Source of the DNA: a virus | IMG/VR virus record: IMGVR_UViG_3300025096_000001 | Location: 1-64,000 of that record | Strand: one strand, 5' to 3' | DNA length: 64,000 bases | Shown: in pieces, positions 1 through 27,367 of the stretch | How positions within the stretch are numbered: the stretch's first letter is position 1 | How the letters are laid out: each line of letters starts with the position of its first letter | Made by a program: the position numbers and the translations under genes | The notes under the pieces: generated by a model | Seen by the model: the letters and a program-made list of their open reading frames with translations, nothing else | What the model was told of the DNA's origin: nothing | The model's database searches: none

Positions 1-156
1 ACCAAATCTTAATAGCGCTTTTCCCATTCTGGGCCATCTGTTAGCAGCCTTGTTCAAAATAATGTTTTGGGATAACTCTCCCCACGTACTTGGTTGATCA
101 ACACCTTCTTCGAGAAAGGCGTCCCAGTTATCCATTATGGTTTTCATATCGGGCAT
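1..156 (-). CDS. hypothetical protein, N-terminal 52 codons only (gene runs off the window start)
   Basis: The frame is open from 156 down to base 1. The ATG at 156 has AGGAGA 5 nt upstream. It begins MPDMKTIMDNWDAFLEEG. It is absent from the ORF track because it is truncated. Confidence 0.35.
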   Translation of the reverse strand, partial: MPDMKTIMDNWDAFLEEGVDQPSTWGELSQNIILNKAANRWPRMGKALLRFG

Positions 157-706: not shown

Positions 707-1523
707 CGGTAAGTTCCCTCGCTAGTTCTTGTGTTTTAAGGATTGTATTTAATACCTCTTCGTCGACATTTCTTGTAGAGTAACTCTCTAATAGTTTAAT
801 AACATCTTGAGCGCGAGATACCATATCTGAGTCTTCAACAAACTCTTTTGTAGTAGTACTTTCTACGATGGTACACTTAAGCCTCGTTATCTCTTCATTA
901 AGATAGGATTTAAGGCTAAGTGAGTTGTCGGCGAATGATGAGATATATAAAGTTAGAAGGTGTTTTTGTTCCTCCGAAAGTGTTTTTGCATATTTGTCGT
1001 TAAACTTCTCCACAAAAGAATTGACTACCAAGCTGTCTATTGGCTGCATTGCCTCTTTATCGGCGGTGGGGGCAGACATGTCACCAAGTAACTGCATCTC
1101 CAATATAACTGAATTCTTGGGAGAGGTATCCGCTGAAAATATTTGATAGATTGAAGCCAGTGTTTTATAATTTGGAACGAAGTTATTGAAGATCTTTGGT
1201 GAAAGCTCTTTGTTTACATCGTCAATCAAATCCGTTTGACTAACGAACAGGCCGGTCGTATCCAAGAGTCGACTGCCGATTTTTGCTTCTTTAATTATCT
1301 TTTCGCATGTCTCTTTATTGATCCCTTTGGTTTCGTAAAGTGAGCGATAACATTCTAAATGTTTCTTAAGAACAGAATTAGGAGAAAAATGTTTCTTTAT
1401 AATGCTGACAACTTTGTCTTTTGTCTGTGTATCATTTTTTATTACTGCTATCGTTGCTTCCCTAACGAGAGCCTCGTAGACAAATGCAGTATTTCTTTTT
1501 TTATTGTGACGTATTTTCATCAT
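690..1523 (-). CDS. hypothetical protein directly downstream of portal (scaffold-position gene; function only guessed from position)
   Basis: The ORF track gives 690..1553. GGAG lies 4-7 nt upstream of tandem ATGs at 1523 and 1520, which favours the shorter form. The start is ambiguous (1553, 1523 or 1520). Confidence 0.45.
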   Translation of the reverse strand: MMKIRHNKKRNTAFVYEALVREATIAVIKNDTQTKDKVVSIIKKHFSPNSVLKKHLECYRSLYETKGINKETCEKIIKEAKIGSRLLDTTGLFVSQTDLIDDVNKELSPKIFNNFVPNYKTLASIYQIFSADTSPKNSVILEMQLLGDMSAPTADKEAMQPIDSLVVNSFVEKFNDKYAKTLSEEQKHLLTLYISSFADNSLSLKSYLNEEITRLKCTIVESTTTKEFVEDSDMVSRAQDVIKLLESYSTRNVDEEVLNTILKTQELARELTDGNND

Positions 1524-3528
1524 CTTGCTCCATTGCTTTTGTTTCAACAGCATTCTGATCTAAGTCACCAATCAGAGTACGAATTGACTCATTAATATTA
1601 AACAGTTTTTGTTCTTCTTTTTGCTCTCTCAAGTTGTAAATAGGCTCCTCATTTTCATAAATACCGACGTTGGCGCCAATTGGTTTTGCTAGAGCAGAAA
1701 TATCTGCGGCGCCGGGAACAATATTTCTTATTCCGGAGCTGCTTTTCTGGCCAGAGGCAGCCTTAAAATTCCTACTACGAGGTCCAGATCCAGCGCGTCT
1801 ATCGTCCTTCTTAGGGTGATATACTTTTCCTTTAGATCCTGGCGTAAGTCTGGGAGCATTTCTTGAGCCGGGAGGTACTGCCAACAATGGCGAGTCATCT
1901 TCTCCGCCGACATCACCGGCCGGCATTTCTTCTGGACCACCTCCAAGATCACCTCCGAGTTCATCGCCACCTAAGTCACCGCCGAGGTCGCCGCCAAGGT
2001 CGCCACCTAAGTCACCGCCCAAGTCGCCACCAAGCCCACCACCGGTTTCTCCGGCTGCCGCAGCCTCTGCGACGGCTTGTAGAGCGGCATCCTGTTTACG
2101 GTCAAAATACATTTCTCTCTGATTACGAACAAAATCTTCATGACTCATGGAGAAAATGTGCTCAGATACCCAGCGACGAGAGAAAAAGCCCTCAGTTGCG
2201 GAGCCGGCAATATCAAATTTCTGTTTCCAGTGTTCCAACTCTTGAAGTTCTGCGATCTTCGAGGGATTGTTTAACTGCAGTTCGAATGATAACAGATCAT
2301 CGCCGCGGAAACCCAAAGTGTAAAGATGGATAATGCCAACCTTTGTTAACTCTGCAATAATGACTCTCTGGAGTCTTTGGATTGTTCTTGCAAAGCGAAT
2401 ATCTTTCTGTGCTAGTGTCGTCTTATCTTCGGCTGCACCCTCACCCATCGCAAGATATGCTTGAGGAATCTTGAGCGCAGAGAACAATTTATCACGCAGG
2501 TATTTAATGTCATCGATTTGCGTAGTGTTTGTACCTCCTGCGAGGTTCTGAATATCTGTTGCTGATCCAGGCCGAACAGGGATGAAATAATCTTCTTCGA
2601 TACTCATTGGATTATAACGTAAGTCAACACGGCCAGTTTTTGCATCAACGACCGAATGTCTCTTAAGTTGTGTGACAATCTTCTCCATGAACTGTTCTAC
2701 TTCATTCGGTGGTACCGCACCAACATCAATTTTGAAAACCCTCCGCTCTGATGAGCGGACAACTCGGTAGGCCATCATTGCGTCTTCCATTAAAACCAGT
2801 TGGCGCCAGATGCGGCGCGCGGGTTCAAGAATAGATGTTCCATATGGGCCATACTTGTCGTTTCCGAGGATGCGAAAATGAGAAATTTGCCAGTTCTCGA
2901 ATGTCATACCAGCAGTGTTCCATTGATATTGTACATAATTGGGATTGGTTGCATCCATTCCTTCTAAGCGCTCTATCTCTTGGGGAGGTAGTGCGATACA
3001 AGAAGTGATTCCAAATTTCTCATCGATGTCGAGATACAAGAAAAAGTCTCCATACTTACACATTGTACGAGACCACCCAAAAAGATTGTATTCTACATTT
3101 AAAATATTTGAGTATAAGATGTTTAAAACAGCCCGGATCTCTTCGTTAGGGCACTTAATGTTTAACATCGGTCGAAGGGCCGAATAGGTTGTCATCTCAT
3201 CCGCATAGATATCCATAGTGGATGCTATCTCTGGCATGTATTCCATTTGGTCAAAATCAATATATCGTTCGGAACGACGTTGGTTTCCGATCGCATTAGC
3301 TGCAATTGTATCCAAAGGGTTGTAGAGCGTTTTCTTAAACTGTTGCCCAGATGCCGAAGAAAATCTACTTGAAAATTTATCAAGATGTTGCCGGCGAATT
3401 CTGCGGCCGGTCTGGGAACGATAATTGATTATCGGTCCCGAGAACAGGCGCGTTAGCCTTTTAAATAATTCGGATTGTTCATTTGCGGGGTTTTTGCCGC
3501 CGGGTATATTTTTTCTTCTGTCTGCCAT
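1501..3528 (-). CDS. portal protein (T7 gp8-type head-to-tail connector family) with a long C-terminal extension
   Basis: 675 aa, immediately downstream of the large terminase. The N-terminal region RSERYIDFDQMEYMPEIASTMDIYADEMT resembles the conserved block of T7-like connector proteins. The C-terminal ~200 aa are low complexity. Confidence 0.8.
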   Translation of the reverse strand: MADRRKNIPGGKNPANEQSELFKRLTRLFSGPIINYRSQTGRRIRRQHLDKFSSRFSSASGQQFKKTLYNPLDTIAANAIGNQRRSERYIDFDQMEYMPEIASTMDIYADEMTTYSALRPMLNIKCPNEEIRAVLNILYSNILNVEYNLFGWSRTMCKYGDFFLYLDIDEKFGITSCIALPPQEIERLEGMDATNPNYVQYQWNTAGMTFENWQISHFRILGNDKYGPYGTSILEPARRIWRQLVLMEDAMMAYRVVRSSERRVFKIDVGAVPPNEVEQFMEKIVTQLKRHSVVDAKTGRVDLRYNPMSIEEDYFIPVRPGSATDIQNLAGGTNTTQIDDIKYLRDKLFSALKIPQAYLAMGEGAAEDKTTLAQKDIRFARTIQRLQRVIIAELTKVGIIHLYTLGFRGDDLLSFELQLNNPSKIAELQELEHWKQKFDIAGSATEGFFSRRWVSEHIFSMSHEDFVRNQREMYFDRKQDAALQAVAEAAAAGETGGGLGGDLGGDLGGDLGGDLGGDLGGDELGGDLGGGPEEMPAGDVGGEDDSPLLAVPPGSRNAPRLTPGSKGKVYHPKKDDRRAGSGPRSRNFKAASGQKSSSGIRNIVPGAADISALAKPIGANVGIYENEEPIYNLREQKEEQKLFNINESIRTLIGDLDQNAVETKAMEQDDENTSQ
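1936..2043 (-). repeat. coding tandem repeat (12-nt unit) specifying GGGL(GGDL)5GGDEL GGDL GGG inside the portal gene
   Basis: I decoded it codon by codon. The units differ at synonymous positions (gcc/acc, gag/aag/taa/caa on the plus strand), so the peptide repeat is preserved while the DNA repeat is degenerate. Confidence 0.9.
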
Positions 3529-7302: not shown

Positions 7303-7746
7303 TTATTCCTTTTTCTTTTTTTTGCCTGCTTTGGACATTTGTTTATCAGCTACGCCATAAGCCTGATCTTCAGGTACACCCTTGTCTATAAGGTATTCGG
7401 CGCGCTCTTCTTTTGCTTTGTAAAAGGACTTTTTATATTTCTCTTCTTCTTCAATTGTACGTAGTTCTTGTACTATTGCATCGACTATCTCGTTCATGCG
7501 CGATGGGTCGTTCAATGGATGTTCTTTTTTTGGCTTAATTACTTTCGCAAAGCGCCCCAATGCGCCTTGGGCATATCCCAAAGCCGCAGGGCTTTCTCCC
7601 GTAACTGCGCCGGCTAAATAATCTATACTAACATCTAGATTATCAATTTTGCTAGCCAAATTATTAATTGCCATCATCAGCGAAGAATCGAGATTCCCCA
7701 ACTCTTCTGTTATAATTTCTTTTATTTTGGACTTCGTAAGCTTCAT
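7303..7746 (-). CDS. leader class A protein (MKLTKSKIKEIITEEL...), Lys-rich C-terminus
   Basis: The ORF track gives 7303..7824. The ATG at 7746 has AAGGGAA upstream, removes the overlap with 7763..8212 and restores the family leader. Confidence 0.65.
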   Translation of the reverse strand: MKLTKSKIKEIITEELGNLDSSLMMAINNLASKIDNLDVSIDYLAGAVTGESPAALGYAQGALGRFAKVIKPKKEHPLNDPSRMNEIVDAIVQELRTIEEEEKYKKSFYKAKEERAEYLIDKGVPEDQAYGVADKQMSKAGKKKKKE

Positions 7747-7762: not shown

Positions 7763-8212
7763 TCATGTCCTATAGGTTTTTGCAAAGATTTCTCTACCAA
7801 CCACCCCATAGTCGCCCGGGCCATATTGTACTAAATAGTCTCCCGGCTCTCCTTGGAGTAAATCATTTGACCACGATACTTTAACTTGGAATGGGTCGCT
7901 CATTTCTTTGGCAAATACCGGTATGTTTTTCTTCGCCGCTGTTCCATCACCAAGGTCGTCGTATGTTTGCGCGAACTTCTCGGCTGGGATCGGCCACTGC
8001 TCGCCTTCCGTGCCTGTCATAACAGCATCGCCGGCTTTTGCTCCCACTGAACCTTCCTTGGTTTCGATGGTTTCGTCCGTCTCGGCGTATCTAAATTCTA
8101 ATGGAATAGGTTTCTTGGCGGTTTGAAAGCCATCTTGGGACAAGTCAGGGTTGTCTTCTAACCCAACTGTCTCATTCAAATACCTGTTCCAACTTTCAAA
8201 TAGTTTTTTCAC
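7763..8212 (-). CDS. leader class B protein with C-terminal PGDYG-type motif
   Basis: GTG start at 8212 (plus strand cac). It begins MKKLFESWNRYLNE. The C-terminus GEPGDYLVQYGPGDYGVVGREIF resembles the PGDYG domain family. That domain assignment is from memory and was not searched. Confidence 0.55.
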   Translation of the reverse strand: MKKLFESWNRYLNETVGLEDNPDLSQDGFQTAKKPIPLEFRYAETDETIETKEGSVGAKAGDAVMTGTEGEQWPIPAEKFAQTYDDLGDGTAAKKNIPVFAKEMSDPFQVKVSWSNDLLQGEPGDYLVQYGPGDYGVVGREIFAKTYRT

Positions 8213-8214
8213 GC

Positions 8215-8523
8215 CTAATACCCTGCATCGTATGGTGATTCGTCTTCATACCAATCGTGTGAGCCAAAATCTCTGCGGCCTATTTCATCCGATAGATCTC
8301 GATGCATCTCTTCGGTGTCGTGATACACGGTAGTTTCTCCATTTTGATGTGTTACCAAAATGGCAGGCTTTCCATCACTATCGATCTCAACGGATGCCTC
8401 GACATTAAACTTGTCAGCCAAGTCTTGCACTTCATCACGCATAAGATCTTCTTTAATAATATCTGTTTTCTCGTCCATAAAATACCGAGGGTCAATTCTT
8501 TTTTTGTTTTTTCTTATAGCCAT
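8215..8523 (-). CDS. hypothetical acidic protein
   Basis: 102 aa. AAGGAA lies 7 nt upstream of the ATG at 8523. Confidence 0.5.
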   Translation of the reverse strand: MAIRKNKKRIDPRYFMDEKTDIIKEDLMRDEVQDLADKFNVEASVEIDSDGKPAILVTHQNGETTVYHDTEEMHRDLSDEIGRRDFGSHDWYEDESPYDAGY

Positions 8524-8538
8524 TATATTATTCCTTTT

Positions 8539-8564
8539 ATGTTGCTAATCCATTCATACTTAGT
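8539..8564. repeat. 26-bp direct repeat, copy 2 (25/26 identical to 9062..9087)
   Basis: The plus strand reads atgttgCtaatccattcatacttagt. It lies in the gap between genes 8560..9063 and 8215..8523 and contains the stop codon of the former. Confidence 0.9.
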
Positions 8565-9063
8565 TTTCCCATCCGTAATCACGACGAGCGTTTGGGTCAC
8601 TATATGGTGGGGGGTTATACATACTTTCATCCCAGTTTCCAGTAGCAATAGCATACCAATTGCCGCGCTTGCCAAGTTTGCGAAAGTGAGCGAGTAGCGG
8701 ATTTTGTTCAAGAGCATCTGCTAAATTATTAAAAAGTTGAGTATATTGTTCTTTGAGTTCTTCCGGGACTGAGGATAGGAACTTTCCGGCTCGCAAATCT
8801 GTGGCGAGGGATTTTGCTGCGGCCGGTGCTTTGTCGCGATGAATTGGACGGCCGCGGCCACCGGTGGGGCCGCGAGAATAAGCTGCAAACCACTTGGTAA
8901 AGTGTTCGCCAATCCGACTATTAACATCAACATTCGACTCGTTTGGTTCTGGTTCTGGATCAGAAGGACCCATACTTCTTTCCAGTCCGCGAGTTAGACG
9001 AGGATCTGGTTCGTATTCTGCTTCGTTTAAGTGCTTTCGCCAATTTTCAAATAGTTTCTTCAT
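8560..9063 (-). CDS. leader class B protein (MKKLFENWRKHLNE...)
   Basis: The ORF track gives 8560..9147. The ATG at 9063 forms an ATGA overlap with the FtsZ-like stop and restores the class B leader. Confidence 0.65.
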   Translation of the reverse strand: MKKLFENWRKHLNEAEYEPDPRLTRGLERSMGPSDPEPEPNESNVDVNSRIGEHFTKWFAAYSRGPTGGRGRPIHRDKAPAAAKSLATDLRAGKFLSSVPEELKEQYTQLFNNLADALEQNPLLAHFRKLGKRGNWYAIATGNWDESMYNPPPYSDPNARRDYGWEN

Positions 9064-10202
9064 GTTGTTAATCCATTCATACTTAGTATCGCAATCAATC
9101 CGGGCACATTCTTTCGGACATAAACGCCCGAGAACAGTGTCTCGCATCGACCGCCGACATAAGCGATTGCCGACTCAATATTCTTGCTGACTTTAGGGTC
9201 AGCCACCATCTCCTCTGACACAACCAGTACTAACGAGCCTGCAGCAGCCTTACCTTTAGGTGGAGGGCACGCAGAACGATTCATACAGTTATGGAGAATC
9301 ACCGATCCAAGCTTTCCAGTATTGGGATCTTTTATCATGGTTGAGCCTAAGAAGGCACGACCATTATTGCCCAGACATGTTTCCAGATCTTTACTATCGA
9401 AAGATTGGATCGGTGAATCCTCGGTGGAGAGTTTTAACACCTGGGCAAATGATTTAGCAAATTGTGTGTTGGCGACAGGGTACATGCCAAGCATGCCAAT
9501 TCTGCCGCGAAGTAAGCGAGTGGCTCGTTCGTTGTCAAGAACAATGTGCGGATGCGCGGCAACATCATTTGCCAGCGTCAACGCATTACGAGCGATTGTG
9601 GGGTTAAGGTTTTCTTGCGCAGTTGGCCATGAAACTACATAAACGACGCGGCCGCTCGCTTGAACAGAGCGTAAGTAACGCTCAAAGACAGGCTGAAGAG
9701 CAGTGACAGAGCTACCGGTACCGCCGCCGCCACCAGCAAGGACGAATAACCAATCAACTTTACCGAGTTTGATGCGGAGAGCATCTTCAATAATTGCACC
9801 ATTTTGACTTAATACCTCTTTTCCATATTCTACATTTTTGCCGATTCCATCAGAATCGGGAATTAAAACGACGTGATCCTCTTCAACGTTCTTCGGAATA
9901 TCTTTTCCAGTTGTGTTTACGAGTAGCGTCTTATTGAAACCTAGTTCAATAAACGCATTCGCCATTTTGTTGCCTCCACCGCCGACGCCAACAAAGCCCA
10001 CATTAATTGAAGAGGGCGCTGTGTTTTCTGGCAAGAGGTCTTCATCAGAGTATTCCATCTGGAGTCCAAAGTCTTCTACCATACCGAAATCTTCAGCATC
10101 TACCTGTTCGTGATAGTGGTCTTTCTCCTGATTAAAGGAGGGTGGTGGTTCTGCGGGAGGCAGAAAATCAAATTCGTTTTTGTTGTCGTTCTCGTCTGAC
10201 AT
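9060..10202 (-). CDS. FtsZ/tubulin-superfamily GTPase with ~65-aa acidic N-terminal extension
   Basis: The following blocks resemble FtsZ:
- GFVGVGGGGNKMANAF resembles the FtsZ T1 loop.
- VLAGGGGGTGSSV is the tubulin signature GGGTGS, the T4 loop.
- HIVLDNERATRLL resembles FtsZ vIPNdrLl.
- SFDSKDLETCLGNNGRAFLGS resembles the T7 region NxDfaDvxtvmxxxGxAxxG.
AAGGAA lies 6 nt upstream of the ATG. Confidence 0.75.
   Translation of the reverse strand: MSDENDNKNEFDFLPPAEPPPSFNQEKDHYHEQVDAEDFGMVEDFGLQMEYSDEDLLPENTAPSSINVGFVGVGGGGNKMANAFIELGFNKTLLVNTTGKDIPKNVEEDHVVLIPDSDGIGKNVEYGKEVLSQNGAIIEDALRIKLGKVDWLFVLAGGGGGTGSSVTALQPVFERYLRSVQASGRVVYVVSWPTAQENLNPTIARNALTLANDVAAHPHIVLDNERATRLLRGRIGMLGMYPVANTQFAKSFAQVLKLSTEDSPIQSFDSKDLETCLGNNGRAFLGSTMIKDPNTGKLGSVILHNCMNRSACPPPKGKAAAGSLVLVVSEEMVADPKVSKNIESAIAYVGGRCETLFSGVYVRKNVPGLIAILSMNGLTT
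9062..9087. repeat. 26-bp direct repeat, copy 1
   Basis: The plus strand reads atgttgTtaatccattcatacttagt. It covers the last codons of the FtsZ-like gene (SMNGLTT stop) and the start codon of 8560..9063. Confidence 0.9.
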
Positions 10203-10212
10203 TGTTTATTCC

Positions 10213-11277
10213 TTATTCTGCGGCCTTTTTGGCTCTAGTAAATGTAGGTGCAAAGTTTAACTTACCACCAGCAAAATCATCTTTAACTGCACTGAAATCT
10301 GGGCCGCCCTTATCTGGATCAAACTGTGGCATGATTTCTCTTGGTGGGCCTTCGCTAGAATACTTTTGTGCGAGGGCGCCGCAGTTGTCAGCAATCTCAG
10401 CACAAGCTCCGACTACAAGCCTTTCCTTTCTCTTGCCAAGTTTGCCGCCAGGTGTGGTCAATTCTTGAACTTGTTCTGCTTCCTCTTCGGGAGCCGAACC
10501 TTGGAAGCCCTTGACAGGTTTGCCACCTGTTCCCTGTCCATATCCTGTGTTTCCTATAACCGCTATAACTTTAGGGTTCATAAAGCTGCCACCCGATTTA
10601 GGGTCCATAACTTTTCCAACATTGGATAAAAGTGCTTGCTCAACTTGTTCTCTATCCATCGCACTTGATCCGATAATGCTTCGGCCTTTCTTAGCTGATG
10701 CTGACGGGATCGCTTTGCCGGCGCCAAGATATGCTGCAATTGCCAATTGGCTAACTAAAAGCGCTTTGCCTGGATCCATTACAATTACATTGGCAGGAAT
10801 TTTACAATTGGTGTTAAAAACAGTTGCGCCGGACCACCTATGGTGACCATCAATAATATAATATGTACCACCGTTTCCGGCTACAAGAATAGGTGGAGCG
10901 GCCGAAGTACCAGCGATAACAGCTTGCAAGCCTTTAGCATTAGAACCATTAAAACCTACAGACTTAAACAAATCGATGACGCCCTGAGTTGGCACTAGTT
11001 GAGGTGCGGGAATAGTTTGCCCCATAGCAACTTTGATTACCTCGTCAGAAGGCTTTGCATCTTCGTCACCAAGTTTAAGAAGCGCCCTTACTGCTGGGCT
11101 TGCGCCTTCAGGCGTGTTTAATTTTGCAACTAGTTGCGCTAAGGGTTGATTAAAATTACCAGCATCTGCTGCATCAATAAGTGGTGCAATGTTCTGTGCT
11201 AACCATTGTGCTGCTTGTTCTTCTGTTTCTATATCTTCGTTTACGAACTTTTTCCAGTTTTCCATTAGTAATTTCAT
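10213..11277 (-). CDS. ParB/Srx-fold (ParB N-terminal-like) domain protein carrying a class B leader
   Basis: GGTYYIIDGHHRWSG (nt 10834..10851 encode DGHHRW) matches the ParB-like nuclease/Srx motif. The upstream LVPTQGVIDL block is consistent with it. The ATG at 11277 (AGGAGA 9 nt upstream) is preferred over the TTG at 11286. It begins MKLLMENWKKFVNE. Confidence 0.6.
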   Translation of the reverse strand: MKLLMENWKKFVNEDIETEEQAAQWLAQNIAPLIDAADAGNFNQPLAQLVAKLNTPEGASPAVRALLKLGDEDAKPSDEVIKVAMGQTIPAPQLVPTQGVIDLFKSVGFNGSNAKGLQAVIAGTSAAPPILVAGNGGTYYIIDGHHRWSGATVFNTNCKIPANVIVMDPGKALLVSQLAIAAYLGAGKAIPSASAKKGRSIIGSSAMDREQVEQALLSNVGKVMDPKSGGSFMNPKVIAVIGNTGYGQGTGGKPVKGFQGSAPEEEAEQVQELTTPGGKLGKRKERLVVGACAEIADNCGALAQKYSSEGPPREIMPQFDPDKGGPDFSAVKDDFAGGKLNFAPTFTRAKKAAE

Positions 11278-14480: not shown

Positions 14481-14729
14481 TTATCTGAGTGCGTCGATCA
14501 TTTCTTGAATCTTGCGGAGTGGCTCTGCCAAGTCGGCTCTGTCATTCCCTTCGAGATACAGAATAACATCCTTAAGGCGAGCACCTGCCTGAGCATGCTC
14601 AGAAGCGTCTCCTTCTGGTCCGGTGACGATTGCTTCATCGCCATGGCCGCCGATGTCTGTATCAACAATACCCTCAGAAGCAACTTCTTCCATAATAATT
14701 TTTCTAAGTTGTTCTTTTGTGATCTTCAT
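14481..14729 (-). CDS. leader class A small protein (MKITKEQLRKIIMEEV...)
   Basis: The ORF track gives 14481..14774. The ATG at 14729 has GGGAGA 5 nt upstream and restores the family leader. Confidence 0.7.
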   Translation of the reverse strand: MKITKEQLRKIIMEEVASEGIVDTDIGGHGDEAIVTGPEGDASEHAQAGARLKDVILYLEGNDRADLAEPLRKIQEMIDALR

Positions 14730-14770
14730 TTTTATCTCCCAACACTCAAACTGAGTGCTTGTTTTTGTGG

Positions 14771-15373
14771 TCACACGTGTTCTTCATCTTCTTCTTTTTC
14801 TTCTAAAAAGAATTCGTTATCGCCATCAAACCTATCGAGCTTTTGACGCTGCGCGTGGCGCTCATCTTCATAGTCCTTATAATCTAAGTCGAATTCTTTC
14901 ATAATCTTGAACAATTCTTGATCAAGCTTGACAGCCATTCTACGTATTCTACGTCCCTCAGTTTTTCGATCAAACGACTGAAGATCCAAATCTGCTGTAT
15001 ATCCGGTAAATTTATTAAACAACATACCCCACTGTTCGATCTTTCTTTTGAATGCATCGTATCTTTCGACTGGGATCTTTAATTCGGCGCCTTCTTCAAG
15101 ACCATAATCGCCTTCAATGTTTTCTTGTGAGGCATCCATTAAACTAGCGACCATATTAGCCAGCTGTTGTAGCTCTTCTGGGTCCTGGGGGTCCAAGTCG
15201 ACAACCAGTTTCATAAGTTCTGCTCTAACAGACTCTGGACGCGATGCTATACCGTGAGAGGACATTGTCTTTGCGGCGGGCATCATTGATAAATGCGCGC
15301 CGTGGCCCTCTTCTATAATATTTCGAATCTCTTCTTTAAGCAGTTGTGTAAGTTGTTGTTTTGTGATTTTCAT
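14771..15373 (-). CDS. leader class A protein (MKITKQQLTQLLKEEI...), acidic C-terminus
   Basis: 200 aa. Its first 24 nt are identical to those of gene 15385..15630. Confidence 0.7.
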   Translation of the reverse strand: MKITKQQLTQLLKEEIRNIIEEGHGAHLSMMPAAKTMSSHGIASRPESVRAELMKLVVDLDPQDPEELQQLANMVASLMDASQENIEGDYGLEEGAELKIPVERYDAFKRKIEQWGMLFNKFTGYTADLDLQSFDRKTEGRRIRRMAVKLDQELFKIMKEFDLDYKDYEDERHAQRQKLDRFDGDNEFFLEEKEEDEEHV

Positions 15374-15384
15374 TTTATTTTTCC

Positions 15385-15630
15385 TTAATTATATTCTATT
15401 TCAACTTCTTTATCTTTCAGAAACGCGGTGGCTTCGCCCATCGCTTTGTCCCAATCAATATAATCATCGGCATCGACATAATTATCTTCAATAAATTCCC
15501 AACCCAGAGACTTTGCATAATCGATAAGCTCTTGTGCATCTCCGCTATAAGTAAATACCTCACGTTCGTTCAAAACCTTTCCAATCTCTTCTTTAATGAT
15601 CTGTTTAAGTTGTTGTTTTGTGATTTTCAT
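15385..15630 (-). CDS. leader class A small protein (MKITKQQLKQIIKEEI...)
   Basis: 81 aa with the family leader. The SD is weak (TAAGAA). Confidence 0.7.
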   Translation of the reverse strand: MKITKQQLKQIIKEEIGKVLNEREVFTYSGDAQELIDYAKSLGWEFIEDNYVDADDYIDWDKAMGEATAFLKDKEVEIEYN

Positions 15631-15642
15631 ATTCTTATTACT

Positions 15643-16101
15643 TTACTTAGTGTTGTTAAGGGCGTTCTTCGCGATCAATACTCCAAGAGCCATCAACAGC
15701 GGGCCGCCCACTATCCCCAGTGCTGCAGCTGCTGGGTTAGCAGCCAGCCATGGCAAGAACTCTACAGCAAAAACAGAAGTGGGAGAAGAGGCAATAAGGC
15801 TGGCGATAGCTATTGTTCCGCCACCTATCATCGCAGTTTTTGCTGTGTTTAAATCTTGGGCGGAGCGATCATAAGTTTCGCCTAGGTTACCCTCTTCCAT
15901 AGCAGCCGCCAATATTGCTGCCAATTCAGGGTCCTGTGATAACTGTTGTACCGTGTTCATAACAACTTCTGATTGGCCTAATGCGTCGGCAACATCAGCG
16001 ATCGCCTGTGGATTCTCGCCGGATGCTGGGTTGTCTTCAGATAAGGCTGCTTCTAATTCTTCTTTGATTATTTTTTTAAGTTCTGAGCGCGCGACTTTCA
16101 T
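15643..16101 (-). CDS. leader class A protein with C-terminal hydrophobic (membrane-like) segments (MKVARSELKKIIKEEL...)
   Basis: 152 aa. AGGAGAAG lies 5 nt upstream. The C-terminus has GGGTIAIASLIASSPTSVFAV and AAAALGIVGGPLLMALGVLIA. Confidence 0.7.
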   Translation of the reverse strand: MKVARSELKKIIKEELEAALSEDNPASGENPQAIADVADALGQSEVVMNTVQQLSQDPELAAILAAAMEEGNLGETYDRSAQDLNTAKTAMIGGGTIAIASLIASSPTSVFAVEFLPWLAANPAAAALGIVGGPLLMALGVLIAKNALNNTK

Positions 16102-17591: not shown

Positions 17592-18155
17592 TTATCCCTG
17601 AAGGGCAGCGATAAGTTGCTTCTTAGTCGTACGTGTATTGACGTCCAATCCACGCTCGCGAGCGAATTCAAGAAGTTGGGCTTTCTTCATCTTCGGAGTC
17701 CATGTTCCGCTGGTTACCGAAACTTCTCCACCATCGACCGAGACAACCTCGATCTCAAAGCTAAGATGTTGGCCGGCCAATGGATGGTTCATATCAAGAA
17801 CCACATGATCGTCCTGAAGTTCGAAGATCTTTGCCAAGAATGGGCCTGCTGGGCCGTTTCCTTGAATAGTCCCTCCGACACGAAACTCAAAATCTGGACC
17901 AAAGGCTTCCCGAGGTACCTTCTGGAAGGCATTCTCGTTGCGTGGGCCATATGCGGCATCCGGCTCTAGAGTGACCGATTTAGTCTCTCCGACAGCCATT
18001 CCCACAACCGCATCATTAAAGCCACGAATCATCCGGGGTGATCCAACTTCAAAGTTAATTGCAGTTCCGCGTGTTCTCGAATTATCAAATTCGGTACCAT
18101 CCGAGAGGGTACCTTTGTAATGGACACTAACATTGTGTCCGGTTGTTACTTTCAT
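17592..18155 (-). CDS. FKBP-type peptidyl-prolyl isomerase, SlyD-like, with C-terminal HeH/Rho-N-like helix-extended-helix tail
   Basis: VHYKGTLSDGTEFDNS, an IF-domain-like insert and DMNHPLAGQHLSFEIEVVSV are typical of SlyD/FkpB. The tail is KMKKAQLLEFARERGLDVNTRTTKKQLIAALQG. AGGAGA is the SD. Confidence 0.85.
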   Translation of the reverse strand: MKVTTGHNVSVHYKGTLSDGTEFDNSRTRGTAINFEVGSPRMIRGFNDAVVGMAVGETKSVTLEPDAAYGPRNENAFQKVPREAFGPDFEFRVGGTIQGNGPAGPFLAKIFELQDDHVVLDMNHPLAGQHLSFEIEVVSVDGGEVSVTSGTWTPKMKKAQLLEFARERGLDVNTRTTKKQLIAALQG

Positions 18156-18255: not shown

Positions 18256-18741
18256 TCAGCGAATCTCAATCTTGTGCACAGCGGGTTCAATGTTCGTAGG
18301 CTGAACCTTCGGAAGTGTGATAGTTAAGATTCCATTTTCAAACGCGCCTGAGATGTCTCTTTCCACCAGATTATCCCCGAGGCGGAAGGAGCGTGCGAAT
18401 GCGGAGCGTTTAACTTCTCGCTTAACATATTGCGAATCTTCAACATTGGCACGTTGGTTGCTCTCGGCCTTGATCGTAAGTACGCCGTCCACAACCTCAA
18501 CAGATACGTCTTCTTTTGTAAGCCCCGGAATTGCGGCTTCAATTTCAACGCGATCATCAAAATTCAATACATTGCACTTTGGATATGATCCTTGTACAAA
18601 AAAGTCTTGTCCGAACTCCTGATGGAATGTTGGAAACATATCTCCCATCAAGTTATTGAATATTTCATCAAATGGAGTCAGGAATTCCCGCTTTGAAATT
18701 TGGCGCGCGGGTTGGGCGCCTCTACGAATAAGATTTGGCAT
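18256..18741 (-). CDS. hsp20: small heat-shock protein (Hsp20/alpha-crystallin family)
   Basis: The alpha-crystallin domain reads IEAAIPGLTKEDVSVEVVDGVLTIKAE ... FARSFRLGDNLVERDISGAFENGILTITLPK. The ATG at 18741 with AAGGAG upstream is preferred to the ORF-track start at 18762. Confidence 0.85.
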   Translation of the reverse strand: MPNLIRRGAQPARQISKREFLTPFDEIFNNLMGDMFPTFHQEFGQDFFVQGSYPKCNVLNFDDRVEIEAAIPGLTKEDVSVEVVDGVLTIKAESNQRANVEDSQYVKREVKRSAFARSFRLGDNLVERDISGAFENGILTITLPKVQPTNIEPAVHKIEIR

Positions 18742-18776
18742 TTTATTTCTCCTTTTTATCATTGTTAGTATAAAAT

Positions 18777-22185: not shown

Positions 22186-23223
22186 CTAAGTAGCTCTTCT
22201 AACAATTCTGACTGGTATTGATAGGGTAACACCAGAAGTGTTCCCGGTGATGTGAACCATCGTATCGATGTAATCGAAGGTTTTTCCTCCTCCAATCCCA
22301 GATATAGCTTTACCAGTCTTTCCATAATCGCTATATTTGGTTGAACGGAGGCCGGCCATTTGAGTTTGTAATACACTCTCAACTGCGGGCCTGAAAAGTG
22401 TTACAGACGCTCCGGGGCCTCTGATTTTTGTATAATCGTTATAATCGCCCTCTGAAGATATATATATTTGATTTGGCGAGGACTGCACTGTATAATTCTT
22501 ATAGTGTAGGCGGGTACCCGAGGAGGTACGTGTAGAAGCCCCTGTTGTGACCGAAGATGCCACTGGGGATGTTGGTGCTGTTCCCGAGTCACTATTAGCG
22601 TACGCAGAGGCGCCGGAACTTAAACCATACACATTATTTATAAATCTACCATCTACCGACACTGTGTACGAAGAATCAACAAGGCCGTCAGAATCTGATA
22701 TTGCTGAAGTTCTTCCTTCCGCTGTTTTATCTAGTGCGGTCGAATCAAAGCCTGTTTCCAAATATATTGCTTTTGTGCCGGCGGATCCGCCCTTTGTCGT
22801 CTTATTAGTGCCATCGAATGGCGAACTAGTTGTTAACAGGGCGTCATAAGTTTCTTGATTGACAGCAATCCAATACTTATCCAAGTAAGTATACAATATT
22901 CCGAGATCTGATACTGCTGTTTTTTCTAATCTATACATTTCTGGCATGTAGAGAATATCGTTGCGAGTAAAAGTTAGGAGGCCATAATTAATATTTGCAT
23001 TAATATCTGTAAAGCTTTCCAAGACGGGCGTTTGTAAAATTTCCAAATCATAGTAAGCTGAACCACTTGGGTGGTTCTTGTCATATAAACCATAGTTTAT
23101 TTCATCATCCCCAAGTGAAAACTGGGATATGTTAAGGCCGGTGCCCGAACTAAGTGCGGCACGACCCTTCTTTGTTAAGACCGCATCTAAAATGATGTCG
23201 CCAGAGTTATCTAAAAAGGCCAT
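22186..23223 (-). CDS. virion structural protein, paralog of 23277..24353
   Basis: It shares the N-terminal block IILDAVLTxxGRxxxSxG...FxLGDDEIxY and the C-terminal block FDYxDTxV...RIxR. GAGGAGA is the SD. Confidence 0.45.
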   Translation of the reverse strand: MAFLDNSGDIILDAVLTKKGRAALSSGTGLNISQFSLGDDEINYGLYDKNHPSGSAYYDLEILQTPVLESFTDINANINYGLLTFTRNDILYMPEMYRLEKTAVSDLGILYTYLDKYWIAVNQETYDALLTTSSPFDGTNKTTKGGSAGTKAIYLETGFDSTALDKTAEGRTSAISDSDGLVDSSYTVSVDGRFINNVYGLSSGASAYANSDSGTAPTSPVASSVTTGASTRTSSGTRLHYKNYTVQSSPNQIYISSEGDYNDYTKIRGPGASVTLFRPAVESVLQTQMAGLRSTKYSDYGKTGKAISGIGGGKTFDYIDTMVHITGNTSGVTLSIPVRIVRRAT

Positions 23224-23276: not shown

Positions 23277-24353
23277 TTATTCGCCCGCGTACCTTATAAT
23301 TCTCAGTGTAAACCTAATTTTCTTTGCTGTTGCGAGACCCTCGACTACAACTGGAGTATCAACATAATCAAATCTGTCGGCGAGACCCCCGGAAGTCGAA
23401 GTTGGAAAAAGAACTTGTGAAGTTTTGCCAAACAAAGTATATCTCACGTCTGGTTCACCATTGGAGGTTGAGAGCATCTTTTGGTTTATTTTAAAGTTTA
23501 AAGACAAAATCGAAGATCTGGGACCTTCAAACATTGATAATTCATCTGCTGCGTTCAATGCAACTGGTGCGTCATAATATTCATTTCCATCAAAACTAAA
23601 CAAGTCATTTTTAACGGCTCTACAATAATAAGTATCATATTCTTTTAAATATTCGTTTAAACTAGTCTTTATTCTTGTTCCAAGTGGCGATAAATTCTCA
23701 TATAAGTTGCCCGACGTATCATTGTTAACCTCGGCGTTAGCGTTGTTGGAAAGTACATTATCTATAAAGTTTCCATTACAGTGGACAAACACGCAATCGT
23801 CAAACAAATTCATATTATAAATGAAATTGTCTCTATTGTGTTTAGTGCCAACAATTTCGAATTCGTCAGTATGTGGAATTCCGGACTCTAATATAACCAT
23901 ATTACCATATACTTCATTATTTTGTATAACTTCTTTAGTAATATCGACATAAAGTTTTAATTTTTTGGTTGTTTCTTCATTTACTGACAGTAATACAACC
24001 TCATTGTTCCACAAAGCTGTGCTATTATCAATTTTTGTGTTTATCTTATAACTTGGCAATAATATTATATCTTGTCTTGGGAGATCCATGAGTCCATAAT
24101 TGATAACGGAGTGTGGAGTAGCGTGCGCTTCGAAAACCGGGACTGTTGAAGTATAGTAATAGCCGTCGTCTCCATAAAGATAATAATAGCCATCACCGGT
24201 TACTCCGTCAAGATCGCCAAGGGCATAATCGACCTCATCGTCACCTAAAGCAAACTTTTCAATATGAAATTTACCTTGTGACATATAGCGGCGGCCTGTG
24301 TCGGTTAAGACAGCATCTAAAATAATTGTACCGGCGGTGTTTTGATACGACAT
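23277..24353 (-). CDS. virion structural protein, paralog of 22186..23223
   Basis: It shares the N- and C-terminal blocks described for 22186..23223. It has a TAATG overlap with the upstream gene. Confidence 0.45.
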   Translation of the reverse strand: MSYQNTAGTIILDAVLTDTGRRYMSQGKFHIEKFALGDDEVDYALGDLDGVTGDGYYYLYGDDGYYYTSTVPVFEAHATPHSVINYGLMDLPRQDIILLPSYKINTKIDNSTALWNNEVVLLSVNEETTKKLKLYVDITKEVIQNNEVYGNMVILESGIPHTDEFEIVGTKHNRDNFIYNMNLFDDCVFVHCNGNFIDNVLSNNANAEVNNDTSGNLYENLSPLGTRIKTSLNEYLKEYDTYYCRAVKNDLFSFDGNEYYDAPVALNAADELSMFEGPRSSILSLNFKINQKMLSTSNGEPDVRYTLFGKTSQVLFPTSTSGGLADRFDYVDTPVVVEGLATAKKIRFTLRIIRYAGE

Positions 24354-27300: not shown

Positions 27301-27367
27301 GAAATAAATCTGAAGAACCTGATAAGAGGTTACTATCGTAGTATGTGAGTGTTATATTATCGGCCAT
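24353..27367 (-). CDS. large virion-associated protein (1004 aa), function unknown
   Basis: A long uninterrupted ORF in the structural block. I recognise no motif. Confidence 0.4.
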   Translation of the reverse strand: MADNITLTYYDSNLLSGSSDLFRNSMKSYLSIVPDADGETYGDGAVKGEIEVSAYAGRHVSPNLSSALINQYESPTEAILTATDDTLFNSIQYCVSLRGWDDLLDGSDYFSDADNPSYLNMEDNDKWKAYVVGGSYGELSYPGVVAMGTYDINSLSVNTTYDLGYAKALSPKNYAAYQTHEHTYLYNYYLHKYEQHLELNNSSIALMPNIYLMSQTVLNVSCDIERIEPELLKWSYIGDWESVPKYIIDGGPTVDAATLTTYITDFLYGDAFERPSLDFSDIEPTPFAPASPTEYTHENYAAKEYLSYVDPSGESIGNGFTNTDLAPNVTSYIFNNTKNLIFNKYGVQQTFPTAHFAVQRMPYATIIELPNLAASTFSETLVSTGFGDVVLCEIAEQFVNNPDMLPAQSFVSKISGDTFDDTDPSTAPIETITQINSQDLKYIDVSEMLVHYSNEGTPRHNIFGSANESFYFIGSQNIDDDSRARRVREMASISRDNNLHYYNKLAADSAIEALQVITEDTGYSFWKAGRSASGLVESTDNSRYNKILLSAIEPDSSSQEVVAIRILKTDVETGEQQNIIIQNQQVSNDDQGASQQASADINWKYYDTQVVYGKTYTYEIYLYVFSMGFRYSYSDLAISRTIASYDSSDEQQCIEFYDPYTGNSKASPMETARLEELGVQPQGDTGDVNRTTLSSLLTSGYSTTAQEMVVATAQKGWPYADFLVTVTPTFKIFEIPIDRKDLTVLDHPPSKMEIRPYQTKDDSQTIGLMGRLEPHVPHRYPTVFSNEDLTMSAKYLTSNNLLVDEEIENASVSKSRFVEVYRTDKEPNKMSDFQGKRVIRHDLIVDGYREVPELHETVAVSSCIFHEEKIATNHKFYYAIRYLNEHMVPGPWEDIQVIELVNDGGYKYLVQDSIRVEDLNQPSQDADPAIQYKKLFKLAPNPEQIFLNTSAVDYNDTSVNQIENIVVGTSRDSIWGKTFKIRMTSKKTGKKVDLNVTYHLRSEL

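What the first reader, a model, noticed from the sequence alone, without database searches (positions are those of the whole stretch)
7763..11277. Second leader class (MKKLFENWRKHLNE type) on three genes bracketing the FtsZ-like gene, including the ParB-fold protein
Three genes share a distinct 14-residue N-terminus:
- 10213..11277 begins MKLLMENWKKFVNE.
- 8560..9063 begins MKKLFENWRKHLNE.
- 7763..8212 begins MKKLFESWNRYLNE and uses a GTG start.
The downstream sequences are unrelated: a ParB/Srx-fold domain, an unknown body, and a PGDYG-type C-terminus. The three genes surround the FtsZ-like gene, and one is ATGA-coupled to it. The leader could therefore be a docking peptide for the FtsZ-like polymer, or a common sorting signal.
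Basis: seen in the sequence. Interest (0 to 1): 0.7.

Follow-up and report, generated by a model that had tools for sequence, protein, structure and literature searches.

The report
Capsid-targeting leader peptide on phage proteins
A 14-residue tag (MKxLxENWxKFLNE) at the start of many unrelated proteins of an abundant uncultured marine T4-like phage is most likely an address label that loads them into the phage head and is then cut off by the head protease, which would let injected proteins be predicted from sequence alone.

Summary
Three minus-strand genes start with MKLLMENWKKFVNE (11277), MKKLFENWRKHLNE (9063) and GTG-MKKLFESWNRYLNE (8212), followed by unrelated bodies. A fourth, variant copy is cut by the window edge (1-156).

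The tag is not specific to the FtsZ-like gene:
- It heads at least 67 unrelated protein families on more than 118 IMG/VR contigs.
- It is always N-terminal.
- True cellular genomes and GenBank phages lack it.

The phage is an uncultured marine T4-superfamily myovirus. Its relatives all encode a T4 gp21-type (S77) prohead protease.

The tag is an amphipathic helix ending in [LIV]-x-E, the gp21 cleavage motif. Its core (hydrophobic-x-x-hydrophobic-hydrophobic-x-Glu) has the same architecture as the T4 capsid-targeting sequence and the gp23 and gp24 cleavage sites.

The same tag heads proteins next to the protease gene. It is interchangeable with two other leader classes in the window.

Best explanation (about 0.62, inferred, no proteomics): a lineage-specific capsid-targeting propeptide marking internal or ejected proteins, which here would include the ParB/Srx-fold and PGDYG proteins. 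FtsZ docking is not supported. It is a new member of a known kind.

The parts
11236..11277 (-). Class-2 leader MKLLMENWKKFVNE of the ParB/Srx-fold protein
   Evidence: In the AlphaFold model, residues 2-12 form a separate helix of lower confidence and residues 13-18 are unstructured. E14 is at least 90% conserved across 68 homologues that carry different leader classes.
10213..11277 (-). ParB/Srx-fold protein (354 aa) carrying the leader; predicted packaged cargo
   Evidence: It contains the DGHHRW motif. The AlphaFold model has pLDDT 89.3. Foldseek finds ParB, Noc, Srx and KorB at probability 0.96-1.0. PHROG ParB-like scores 3.6e-4. 159 homologues were found, nearly all with an N-terminal extension ending hydrophobic-x-E.
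9060..10202 (-). FtsZ/tubulin-like GTPase; a neighbour, not part of the leader system
   Evidence: PF00091 scores 9.9e-10 and PDB FtsZ 5.8e-12. It has no leader. It is conserved in the lineage (35 hits). No homologue was found in 50,697 GenBank phages.
9022..9063 (-). Class-2 leader MKKLFENWRKHLNE; its ATG overlaps the FtsZ-like stop codon (ATGA)
8560..9063 (-). 167-aa protein of unknown family carrying the leader; predicted packaged cargo
   Evidence: No Pfam or PHROG family matches. Body homologues in L115 and L038 also carry class-2 leaders.
8215..8523 (-). 102-aa protein with the class-3 leader MAIRKNKKRIDPRYFMDEKTDIIKE
   Evidence: Its body is 81% identical to a protein in L040 that carries a class-2 leader instead. 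The alignment starts directly after IIKE. This shows leader swapping.
8171..8212 (-). Class-2 leader (GTG start) MKKLFESWNRYLNE
   Evidence: Orthologues start MKQLFENWNRYLNE or MKLLLENWRKFITE.
7763..8212 (-). PGDYG-domain protein (149 aa) carrying the leader; predicted packaged cargo
   Evidence: PF14083 scores 3.1e-19 and 69.6 bits over residues 58-148.
7303..7746 (-). 147-aa protein with the class-1 leader MKLTKSKIKEIITE
   Evidence: The heptad IKEIITE ends at residue 14.
1..156 (-). 5' part of a fourth class-2-type leader gene (MPDMKTIMDNWDAFLEE...), cut by the window edge, in the head module downstream of the portal gene
   Evidence: The full 195-aa protein is on the identical contig L121. 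Orthologues start MKLIMENWSGFLKE or MKLIMENWNRYLTE. In relatives the S77 protease gene follows about 0.4 kb further on.
14481..16101 (-). Four consecutive genes with the class-1 leader MKITKQQLKQIIKE (starts at 14729, 15373, 15630, 16101)
   Evidence: Each has a hydrophobic-x-x-hydrophobic-hydrophobic-x-E heptad ending exactly at residue 14.
1501..3528 (-). T4 gp20-type portal protein (context: T4-type head module)
   Evidence: phrog_213 scores 2.7e-68. tblastn hits 2,576 phage records, mainly T4-like.

Best explanation
The 14-residue leader is a lineage-specific capsid-targeting propeptide, analogous to the T4 capsid-targeting sequence (CTS).

Proposed mechanism:
1. The leader folds as a short amphipathic helix (M1, L4, L/F5, W8, F/Y11, L/I/V12 on one face).
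2. The helix binds the scaffolding core of the assembling prohead, so any protein carrying it is built into the head.
3. The T4 gp21-type (S77) prohead protease then cuts after Glu14, at the [LIV]-x-E motif.
4. The mature cargo is released inside the capsid and travels with the DNA into the next host cell.

Under this model the ParB/Srx-fold protein, the PGDYG protein, the 167-aa unknown protein and the truncated head-module protein in this window are internal or ejected virion proteins. The class-1 (MKITKQQLKQIIKE) and class-3 (MAIRKNKK...IIKE) leaders in the same window would be interchangeable versions of the same signal.

Shown here:
- N-terminal exclusivity, modularity and recurrence of the leader.
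- The hydrophobic-x-E end and the helix.
- The presence of the protease and a T4-type head module in the lineage.
- The same leader on head-module proteins.

Inferred, not shown: binding to the scaffold, cleavage, packaging and ejection.
For: 1. The leader is N-terminal only and modular.
- 129 leader ORFs on more than 118 IMG/VR contigs give 116 unique leaders. 122 bodies fall into at least 67 unrelated clusters.
- In loci fetched by portal homology, independently of the leader, the core occurs 42 times within the first 60 residues and never further inside an ORF.

2. The conservation boundary is sharp and fits a cleavage motif.
- Conservation stops at E14 and an acidic, variable stretch follows.
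- In the independently fetched set, 29 of 42 have hydrophobic-x-E exactly at positions 12-14. Nearly all others have it shifted by 1-5 residues.
- P2 varies (N, T, K, I, D, S) while P3 and P1 are kept.
- gp21 cleaves after L/I-x-E (PMC9026906).

3. The lineage has the protease and a T4-type head.
- 61 loci of relatives encode a protease homologue, in most of them 1.7-2.7 kb downstream of the portal gene.
- It matches Peptidase_S77 at 6.8e-34 and the T4 gp21 structure 5JBL at 6.9e-22.
- The capsid protein matches Gp23 (PF07068) at 4e-73.
- The capsid protein carries ELLRE at residue 59/60, which I place by eye at the position of the T4 gp23 cleavage site.

4. The same leader occurs inside the head module.
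- A leader-tagged gene sits between the portal and protease genes in 14 of the 61 protease-bearing loci. Examples are L207/L078 MK[TS]LIENWNKFVNE, L171 MKLIMESWRKVLTE and the window's own truncated gene.
- The gene directly after the protease, in the scaffold position, usually starts MSDWSSF...[DE]xW[RK]xFLxE.

5. The core architecture matches T4. Class-2 WRKFLNE and class-1 LKQIIKE both end at residue 14. They share the pattern hydrophobic-x-x-hydrophobic-hydrophobic-x-E with T4 IPII/IPIII YQEFIAE(10), gp23 FGSFLTE(65) and gp24 INELLRE(10), read from NC_000866. In T4, residues 4 and 7 direct targeting and residues 8 and 10 direct processing.

6. Leaders are swapped between orthologues.
- The window's 102-aa protein (class 3) has an 81%-identical body behind a class-2 leader in L040.
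- ParB-like orthologues carry many different leaders that all end hydrophobic-x-E just before the conserved body.
- The heptad is about 12-fold enriched in their first 35 residues: 89 per 3,480 positions against 75 per 36,895.

7. The region between the FtsZ-like gene and TerL holds 0-8 leader genes in variable order. This resembles the diverse T4 internal proteins, which share only the CTS (PMC3012670).

8. The cargo domains are effector-like: protein kinase, Zeta toxin, ART-PolyVal, NUDIX, GNAT, HAD/NT5C, 2H phosphoesterase and ParB/Srx. These overlap the repertoire of proteins known or predicted to be packaged and injected (PMC5512222).

9. In the AlphaFold model the leader is a detached helix followed by a loop that contains E14. 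Its hydrophobic moment is 0.56-0.71.
Against: - No virion proteome or N-terminal sequencing exists, because the lineage has no cultured member. Cleavage and packaging are inferred.
- The protease gene itself lies just outside the window and outside the identical public contigs. Its presence in this exact genome rests on synteny with 61 relatives.
- The number of tagged genes is high: 10 within 16 kb of this window when all three classes are counted. This is many more than in T4. Some cargo (HAD phosphatases, NUDIX) has no obvious need to be injected.
- The leader is more strongly conserved (W8, E6, N7, N13) than a protease site alone requires. This could reflect another binding partner.
- ParB-like and FtsZ-like genes are adjacent in a number of relatives, which hints at a cytoplasmic partnership.
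- There is no significant sequence similarity to the T4 CTS beyond the pattern.
- No T4-type late promoter lies upstream of the leader genes.
Confidence: 0.62

Rival explanations
1. Protease-processed but not packaged. The leader is a propeptide that the prohead protease, or another protease, removes late in infection to activate or inactivate the proteins in the cytoplasm. In this reading it is a timing switch, not a loading signal.
For: The hydrophobic-x-E end and the S77 protease fit this equally well. Some cargo looks metabolic (HAD, NUDIX).
Against: In T4, gp21 acts during maturation of the assembled prohead. The strongly conserved helix upstream of the cut site implies a binding function. 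The same leader sits on proteins in the scaffold and core gene positions.
Confidence: 0.12
2. Docking peptide for the FtsZ-like polymer. The helix binds the phage FtsZ-like filament and brings the cargo to it.
For: In this window the three genes flank the FtsZ-like gene and one overlaps it by ATGA. ParB-like and FtsZ-like genes are adjacent in a number of relatives. Both the FtsZ-like gene and the leader are confined to this lineage, so their co-occurrence cannot be separated.
Against: At least 67 cargo families carry the leader, many of them among replication and metabolic genes far from the FtsZ-like gene. Leader genes lie next to the protease in the head module. In L134/L076, L143, L163 and L171 no class-2 gene flanks the FtsZ-like gene. 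The invariant hydrophobic-x-E end and the swapping with two other leader classes are not predicted by this idea. Mel-JY01 has a leader on its ParB-like protein but no detectable FtsZ homologue.
Confidence: 0.05
3. General assembly or localisation tag for another structure. The tag could be a membrane-targeting amphipathic helix, or a tag for a replication or assembly compartment.
For: The leader is clearly amphipathic, with a hydrophobic moment of 0.56-0.71; at most 3% of shuffles reach these values. N-terminal amphipathic helices anchor some FtsZ partners such as SepF (own knowledge).
Against: A membrane helix needs neither an invariant Glu14 and Asn13 nor a sharp end. The tag sits on soluble enzymes and on head-module proteins. 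It has no hydrophobic stretch and its mean hydrophobicity is negative.
Confidence: 0.08
4. A nucleic-acid-level feature. The shared 5' coding sequence would be a translation-initiation or recombination module rather than a functional peptide.
For: The codons are A-rich. The genes lie in a highly plastic region, where short shared sequences could promote cassette exchange.
Against: The three copies differ at synonymous sites, and nothing upstream of the start codon is conserved. Across contigs the amino acids are kept while the codons vary; the degenerate search pattern was needed to find them.
Confidence: 0.03

Closest known systems
Capsid-targeting sequence (CTS) of phage T4 internal proteins IPI, IPII, IPIII (and the Alt propeptide)
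   Same: - It is a short peptide at the extreme N-terminus, starting MK, on otherwise unrelated proteins.
- It ends in the gp21 motif L/I-x-E.
- It has the same hydrophobic-x-x-hydrophobic-hydrophobic-x-E core: T4 YQEFIAE against WRKFLNE and LKQIIKE here.
- The phage has a gp20 portal, gp21-type protease and gp23-type capsid protein.
- The cargo genes are diverse and lie in a plastic region.

   Different: - It is 14 residues long, not 10.
- There is no significant sequence similarity beyond the pattern.
- Three interchangeable leader classes occur in one genome.
- Far more cargo families carry it: at least 67 in the lineage and 10 tagged genes in this window, including enzymes of up to 900 aa.
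- Nothing has been tested experimentally.
Propeptides of head and inner-body proteins of giant phages (phiKZ, 201phi2-1, SPN3US) cut by gp21-like proteases
   Same: Many different proteins are packaged with the DNA. All are cut after Glu by a diverged gp21 homologue (PMC9026906).
   Different: Those propeptides are long and not similar to each other, and their motif is S/A-x-E. Here one short, nearly invariant tag is reused, and P3 is aliphatic as in T4.
Cargo-loading peptides of encapsulins (own knowledge)
   Same: A short, conserved, transferable terminal peptide directs unrelated enzymes into a shell of HK97-fold proteins.
   Different: Encapsulin peptides are usually C-terminal, bind the shell protein directly and are not cleaved. 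Here the tag is N-terminal, probably binds the scaffold core and carries a protease site.
Polyvalent proteins and other packaged early effectors of phages (Iyer et al. 2017, PMC5512222)
   Same: The domain repertoire overlaps: ParB/Srx-type domains, ADP-ribosyltransferase (ART-PolyVal), 2H phosphoesterase, NUDIX and GNAT. Both are predicted to be injected with the DNA.
   Different: Polyvalent proteins fuse many domains into one giant polypeptide. Here each domain is a separate small protein with its own address tag.

Membership tests
T4-type capsid-targeting propeptide (CTS) | Short peptide at the extreme N-terminus shared by proteins with unrelated bodies | tested here: met
   There are 116 unique leaders on at least 67 body clusters. 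The core occurs 42 times within the first 60 residues and never further inside an ORF in independently fetched loci.
T4-type capsid-targeting propeptide (CTS) | Ends in the prohead-protease cleavage motif L/I-x-E | tested here: met
   [LIV]-x-E lies at residues 12-14 in all window copies and in 29 of 42 unbiased copies; most others are shifted by 1-5 residues. Val at P3 is an extension of the T4 motif.
T4-type capsid-targeting propeptide (CTS) | The phage encodes a gp21-family (S77) prohead protease and a T4-type head module | tested here: met
   This is met for the lineage: 61 loci of relatives, Peptidase_S77 at 6.8e-34, 5JBL at 6.9e-22, Gp23 capsid protein at 4e-73 and a gp20-type portal in the window. 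The protease gene of this exact genome lies just beyond the window edge and was not seen.
T4-type capsid-targeting propeptide (CTS) | Sequence relationship to the T4 CTS MKTYQEFIAE | tested here: inconclusive
   Only the MK start and the heptad pattern hydrophobic-x-x-hydrophobic-hydrophobic-x-E are shared. There is no alignable similarity, so common descent cannot be claimed.
T4-type capsid-targeting propeptide (CTS) | The peptide is sufficient to load a protein into the prohead; the cargo is present in virions | not testable with these tools
   This needs virion mass spectrometry or leader-reporter fusions. No cultured member exists.
T4-type capsid-targeting propeptide (CTS) | The peptide is removed by the prohead protease in mature virions | not testable with these tools
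   This needs N-terminomics or an in vitro cleavage assay.
Sec/Tat-type signal peptide | Hydrophobic core of about 7-15 residues after a basic N-region | tested here: not met
   There is no hydrophobic run. Mean hydrophobicity is -0.08 to -0.41, and the hydrophobic residues are spaced as in an amphipathic helix.
ParB/Srx superfamily (gene 10213-11277) | ParB/Srx alpha+beta fold with the conserved GxxR/DGHHR-type active-site motif | tested here: met
   D143-G-H-H-R-W148 is invariant in 68 homologues. The model has pLDDT 89.3. The top Foldseek hits are ParB, Noc, KorB and sulfiredoxin at probability 0.96-1.0 with E about 3e-3. Pfam ParBc_2 is below its cut-off, at 15.3 against 23.6 bits.
PGDYG protein family PF14083 (gene 7763-8212) | Match to the Pfam model above its gathering score | tested here: met
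   The match scores 69.6 bits against a cut-off of 27, over residues 58-148 and nearly the full profile.
FtsZ/tubulin GTPases (gene 9060-10202) | Tubulin/FtsZ GTPase domain | tested here: met
   PF00091 scores 39.4 bits against a cut-off of 33. The best PDB matches are FtsZ chains at 5.8e-12.

The most novel reading that the evidence does not exclude
The tag, together with its class-1 and class-3 equivalents, is a transferable 'zip code' that loads dozens of different enzymes into the capsid of one of the most abundant uncultured marine myovirus lineages. The cargo would include kinases, an ADP-ribosyltransferase, NUDIX and HAD hydrolases, and ParB/Srx proteins. That would be the largest injected-protein arsenal readable directly from sequence. 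In addition, the shared heptad hydrophobic-x-x-hydrophobic-hydrophobic-x-Glu would be the general recognition code of gp21-family prohead proteases and scaffolds across the T4 superfamily. Injected proteins could then be predicted in any such phage genome or metagenome.
Probability: 0.35. Interest if true: 0.75.

Novelty: new member of a known kind. Interest (0 to 1): 0.55.

Why it matters
If the tag is a capsid-loading signal, the set of proteins that an uncultured phage injects ahead of its own gene expression can be listed from sequence alone. Those proteins are its first-strike tools against host defences and host metabolism.

The lineage is very common in marine viromes: more than 595 portal relatives were found in IMG/VR. 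Its tagged cargo includes protein kinases, an ADP-ribosyltransferase, Zeta-toxin-like kinases and ParB/Srx-type proteins. These are candidates for new anti-defence or host-takeover functions.

The tag would reassign the ParB-fold protein next to the FtsZ-like gene from 'partition protein' to 'protein that travels with the DNA'. It could also serve as a compact handle for loading foreign proteins into capsids, as the T4 CTS already does.

The heptad shared with the T4 cleavage sites offers a testable rule for the whole T4 superfamily.

Tried and rejected
- DNA search of the region against GenBank phages found no match.
- tblastn of 22-mer class-2 and class-1 leaders against GenBank phages found no true match. 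My recollection that such leaders occur in cultured cyanophages or pelagiphages was therefore not confirmed.
- tblastn of a distant ParB-like homologue (P0102) against GenBank phages found no match.
- I tried to reach the protease gene of this exact genome. An exact-pattern scan of IMG/VR found nothing. Look-ups of contigs encoding the window's 179-aa and portal proteins gave contigs of at most 10.6 kb that stop just short of the protease.
With 42-aa N-termini it returned only 50 short fragments, so it says nothing about breadth.
- The head-slot 195-aa protein aligns with the L207 192-aa protein only over the leader, so their bodies are not demonstrably homologous. True orthologues were then found.
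- The T4 late-promoter motif TATAAATA occurs 13 times against 5.9 expected, and none lies upstream of a leader gene.
- Literature searches for the leader strings, for Mel-JY01 and for CTS in marine phages found nothing relevant.
- I could not find the numbers for T4 gp23/gp24 cleavage positions (E65, E10) in the open texts I searched. They are cited from general knowledge of T4 and from Figure 3 of PMC9026906.
- A signal-peptide reading was rejected on hydrophobicity.
- 65 of the 118 leader loci share no gene with the reference regions. Their large ORFs are replication and metabolic genes: DnaB, UvsX-like recombinase, ribonucleotide reductase, PhoH, GroEL and DNA polymerase. This is compatible with other parts of the same large genomes, but membership of the same lineage is not proven for them.

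Full report
**Observation**

- MKLLMENWKKFVNE (11277..11236, ATG start)
- MKKLFENWRKHLNE (9063..9022, ATG start overlapping the stop codon of the FtsZ-like gene as ATGA)
- MKKLFESWNRYLNE (8212..8171, GTG start)

A gene caller applied to an identical public contig chose the same starts. A six-frame scan of the window finds the core motif only at these three places.

A fourth, variant copy (MPDMKTIMDNWDAFLEE) begins a gene that the left edge of the window cuts off at 156..1.

At the DNA level, similarity starts at the start codon and the copies differ at synonymous positions. The peptide is therefore what is conserved.

The bodies are unrelated:
- One is a PGDYG domain (PF14083, 69.6 bits).
- One is a 167-aa protein with no family match.
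- One is a 354-aa protein whose AlphaFold model (pLDDT 89.3) matches ParB, Noc, KorB and sulfiredoxin structures (probability 0.96-1.0). It carries an invariant DGHHRW motif.

The gene between them is a genuine but divergent FtsZ/tubulin GTPase.

**What genome this is**

The window is part of a large myovirus of the T4 superfamily. It encodes a gp20-type portal (phrog_213, 2.7e-68), a large terminase subunit, baseplate wedge proteins, an SbcCD-like nuclease and a primase.

The nearest cultured phages are Microcystis phage Mel-JY01 and Flavobacterium phage immuto, at only about 39% portal identity. IMG/VR holds more than 595 relatives, of which the best 80 have 70-85% portal identity, on contigs up to about 196 kb. 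This is an abundant, uncultured, mostly marine lineage.

**Recurrence**

- All 129 hits head an open reading frame.
- There are 116 distinct leaders. The 122 bodies fall into at least 67 clusters with no detectable similarity to each other.
- The same pattern found only three matches in one genome each of 185,579 bacterial and archaeal species. All three are short contigs carrying genes shared with the viral loci studied here; L207 is plainly a head-module contig of this lineage. I read all three as phage DNA mis-binned into metagenome-assembled genomes.
- A 22-residue query found nothing in 50,697 GenBank phage records.

The tag is virus-specific.

**Anatomy of the leader**

The search pattern fixed several positions, so I re-measured the leader in loci fetched by portal homology, independently of the leader.
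- The core MK-x-hydrophobic-hydrophobic-[ED]-x-W occurs 42 times there, always within the first 60 residues of an ORF and never further inside one.
- 29 of the 42 have hydrophobic-x-Glu exactly at residues 12-14. Nearly all others have it shifted by one to five residues.
- P2 varies freely (N, T, K, I, D, S), whereas the aliphatic P3 and Glu P1 are kept.
- Conservation stops abruptly after Glu14 and an acidic, variable stretch follows.
- In the AlphaFold model of the ParB-fold protein, residues 2-12 form a separate helix of lower confidence and residues 13-18 are a loop. The confident fold starts at residue 19.
- The helix is amphipathic, with a hydrophobic moment of 0.56-0.71.

**Link to head assembly**

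Sixty-one loci of relatives encode a homologue of the T4 prohead protease gp21, in most of them 1.7-2.7 kb downstream of the portal gene. It matches Peptidase_S77 at 6.8e-34 and the T4 gp21 crystal structure 5JBL at 6.9e-22. The major capsid protein is of the Gp23 family (4e-73).

T4 gp21 cuts after L/I-x-E (PMC9026906).

The window and its identical public contigs end a few hundred bases before the expected protease gene. The gene order up to that point is the same as in the relatives.

The same leader occurs inside the head module:
- In 14 of the 61 protease-bearing loci the slot between the portal and protease genes holds a leader-tagged protein. Examples are MKTLIENWNKFVNE in L207, MKLIMESWRKVLTE in L171 and the truncated gene of this window.
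- The gene immediately after the protease, the position of the T4 scaffold gene 22, usually begins MSDWSSF... followed by [DE]xW[RK]xFLxE. That is the leader core behind a short extension.
- The capsid protein of the lineage carries ELLRE at residue 59/60. Judged by eye against the conserved KW...LLEG and ENQ stretches, this lies at the position of the T4 gp23 cleavage site.

**A shared heptad**

Class-2 leaders (WRKFLNE) and the window's 'first class' leaders (MKITKQQLKQIIKE, heptad LKQIIKE) both place hydrophobic-x-x-hydrophobic-hydrophobic-x-Glu so that Glu is residue 14.

Reading the T4 record, the same heptad ends in three places:
- at residue 10 of IPII and IPIII (YQEFIAE);
- at residue 10 of gp24 (INELLRE);
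- at residue 65 of gp23 (FGSFLTE).

These are the classical gp21 cleavage sites; the positions come from general knowledge of T4 and Figure 3 of PMC9026906. In the T4 CTS, residues 4 and 7 direct targeting and residues 8 and 10 direct processing. Those are exactly the four constrained heptad positions.

**Modularity**

The window's 102-aa protein (8215-8523) has a third kind of leader, MAIRKNKKRIDPRYFMDEKTDIIKE. Its body is 81% identical to a protein in L040 that carries a class-2 leader instead, and the alignment begins right after IIKE.

The 159 homologues of the ParB-fold protein carry at least a dozen different N-terminal extensions. Examples:
- class 2;
- MSFSSFKKSKLIFENWRGFMNE;
- MK.LI.EAARLQKLAGILKE;
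- MNFKEQSYYKKFQKFLTE;
- MIKLKQLLNE;
- class 1.

All 78 that I could anchor end hydrophobic-x-Glu just before the conserved body. Glu14 is at least 90% conserved in the alignment. The heptad is about 12-fold enriched in the first 35 residues relative to the rest of these proteins.

The Mel-JY01 orthologue starts MGILKQLLKE, although no homologue of the FtsZ-like protein is detectable in GenBank phages.

**The FtsZ question**

In relatives, the stretch between the FtsZ-like gene and the terminase gene is a plastic island. It holds zero to eight small genes, nearly all with a class-1, -2 or -3 leader, in variable number and order.

In L134/L076, L143, L163 and L171 no class-2 gene flanks the FtsZ-like gene. 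In L176 the ParB-like gene lies on the other side. The bracketing is therefore a local arrangement, not a conserved feature.

**Cargo**

Forty representative tagged proteins include protein kinases, a Zeta-toxin-type kinase, an ART-PolyVal ADP-ribosyltransferase, NUDIX, GNAT, HAD/5'-nucleotidases, a 2H phosphoesterase and DUF192. By their GDGHHR and DGNHR motifs, which I identified by eye in the sequences, two further tagged protein families look like small ParB/Srx-type proteins.

This overlaps the domain repertoire of proteins known or predicted to be packaged and injected by phages, such as T4 Alt and P1 DdrB (PMC5512222).

**Interpretation**

The best-supported model is that the leader is a lineage-specific capsid-targeting propeptide. 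An amphipathic helix binds the scaffold core. A [LIV]-x-E site is then cut by the S77 protease, which releases the cargo inside the head for delivery with the DNA. I put this at about 0.62. Every step after 'the motif and the protease exist' is inference.

Main reservations:
- There are no proteomic data.
- The number of tagged genes is large.
- Some cargo looks metabolic.
- The ParB-like and FtsZ-like genes are adjacent in a number of relatives.
- The protease gene of this exact genome was not seen.

Rivals:
- Processing without packaging: 0.12.
- Another localisation function of the amphipathic helix: 0.08.
- FtsZ docking: 0.05.
- A nucleic-acid-level module: 0.03.

**Novelty**

The kind of system is known: the T4 CTS, and the propeptides of giant phages. 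This particular tag and its three interchangeable classes appear undescribed, as do the width of its cargo set and the shared heptad; no hits came from literature searches for the strings or the concept in marine phages. I rate it a new member of a known kind, of moderate interest. Its practical value is in predicting the injected proteins of uncultured phages.

Noticed in passing
window 7303-7746, 14481-14729, 14771-15373, 15385-15630, 15643-16101 (all minus strand): Five genes start with a different 14-residue leader, MK[IL]TK.QLK.II.E ('class 1'). Like class 2, it places hydrophobic residues at 8, 11 and 12 and Glu at 14. It is probably the same kind of signal.
   Followed up: partly
window 8215-8523 (minus strand): A third leader class, MAIRKNKKRIDPRYFMDEKTDIIKE (25 aa), recurs on more than 30 ORFs in relatives. 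It is exchanged with class-2 leaders on the same body (81% identity).
   Followed up: yes
window 1-156 (minus strand); full gene at L121:9790-10377: A variant class-2 leader gene (MPDMKTIMDNWDAFLEE, 195 aa) lies in the head module and is cut by the window edge.
   Followed up: yes
L134:14335-15228, L176:14338-15351, L171:15279-17012 and others: The gene directly after the prohead protease (the scaffold position) begins MSDWSSF... followed by the leader core [DE]xW[RK]xFLxE. Its length ranges from 100 to about 890 aa.
   Followed up: partly
L134:15659-15901 (and the same position in other relatives): A ribosomal protein S21 gene (PF01165, 7.7e-13) sits inside the head-morphogenesis module. Mel-JY01 has one in the same place.
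   Followed up: no
window 9060-10202 with 10213-11277: The FtsZ-like gene is conserved throughout the lineage. It lies next to the ParB/Srx-fold gene in a number of relatives. It has no detectable homologue in 50,697 GenBank phage records. Its role is unknown.
   Followed up: partly
window 33279-45185, 49389-55832, 28904-32215, 24353-27367 (minus strand): Very large ORFs (3,968, 2,147, 1,103 and 1,004 aa) lie in the tail and baseplate region. The 1,004-aa ORF had no PHROG match; the other three were not scanned.
   Followed up: no
window 17592-18155 and 18256-18762 (minus strand): The phage encodes an FKBP-type peptidyl-prolyl isomerase (2.8e-21) and an HSP20 small heat-shock protein (1.1e-19), side by side.
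   Followed up: no
window 22186-23223 and 23277-24353 (minus strand): Two adjacent genes share a similar N-terminus (MAFLDNSGDIILDAVLTKKGR and MSYQNTAGTIILDAVLTDTGR). They are probably paralogous structural proteins.
   Followed up: no
L205, L206, L207 (GTDB genome contigs CAZAZD010000082, JBBAUR010000108, PAAD01000063): Phage contigs of this lineage are binned into MAGs named Isosphaeraceae, Bdellovibrionota and Flavobacteriaceae. The Flavobacteriaceae case, together with the Flavobacterium phage relatives, is a weak hint about the host.
   Followed up: partly
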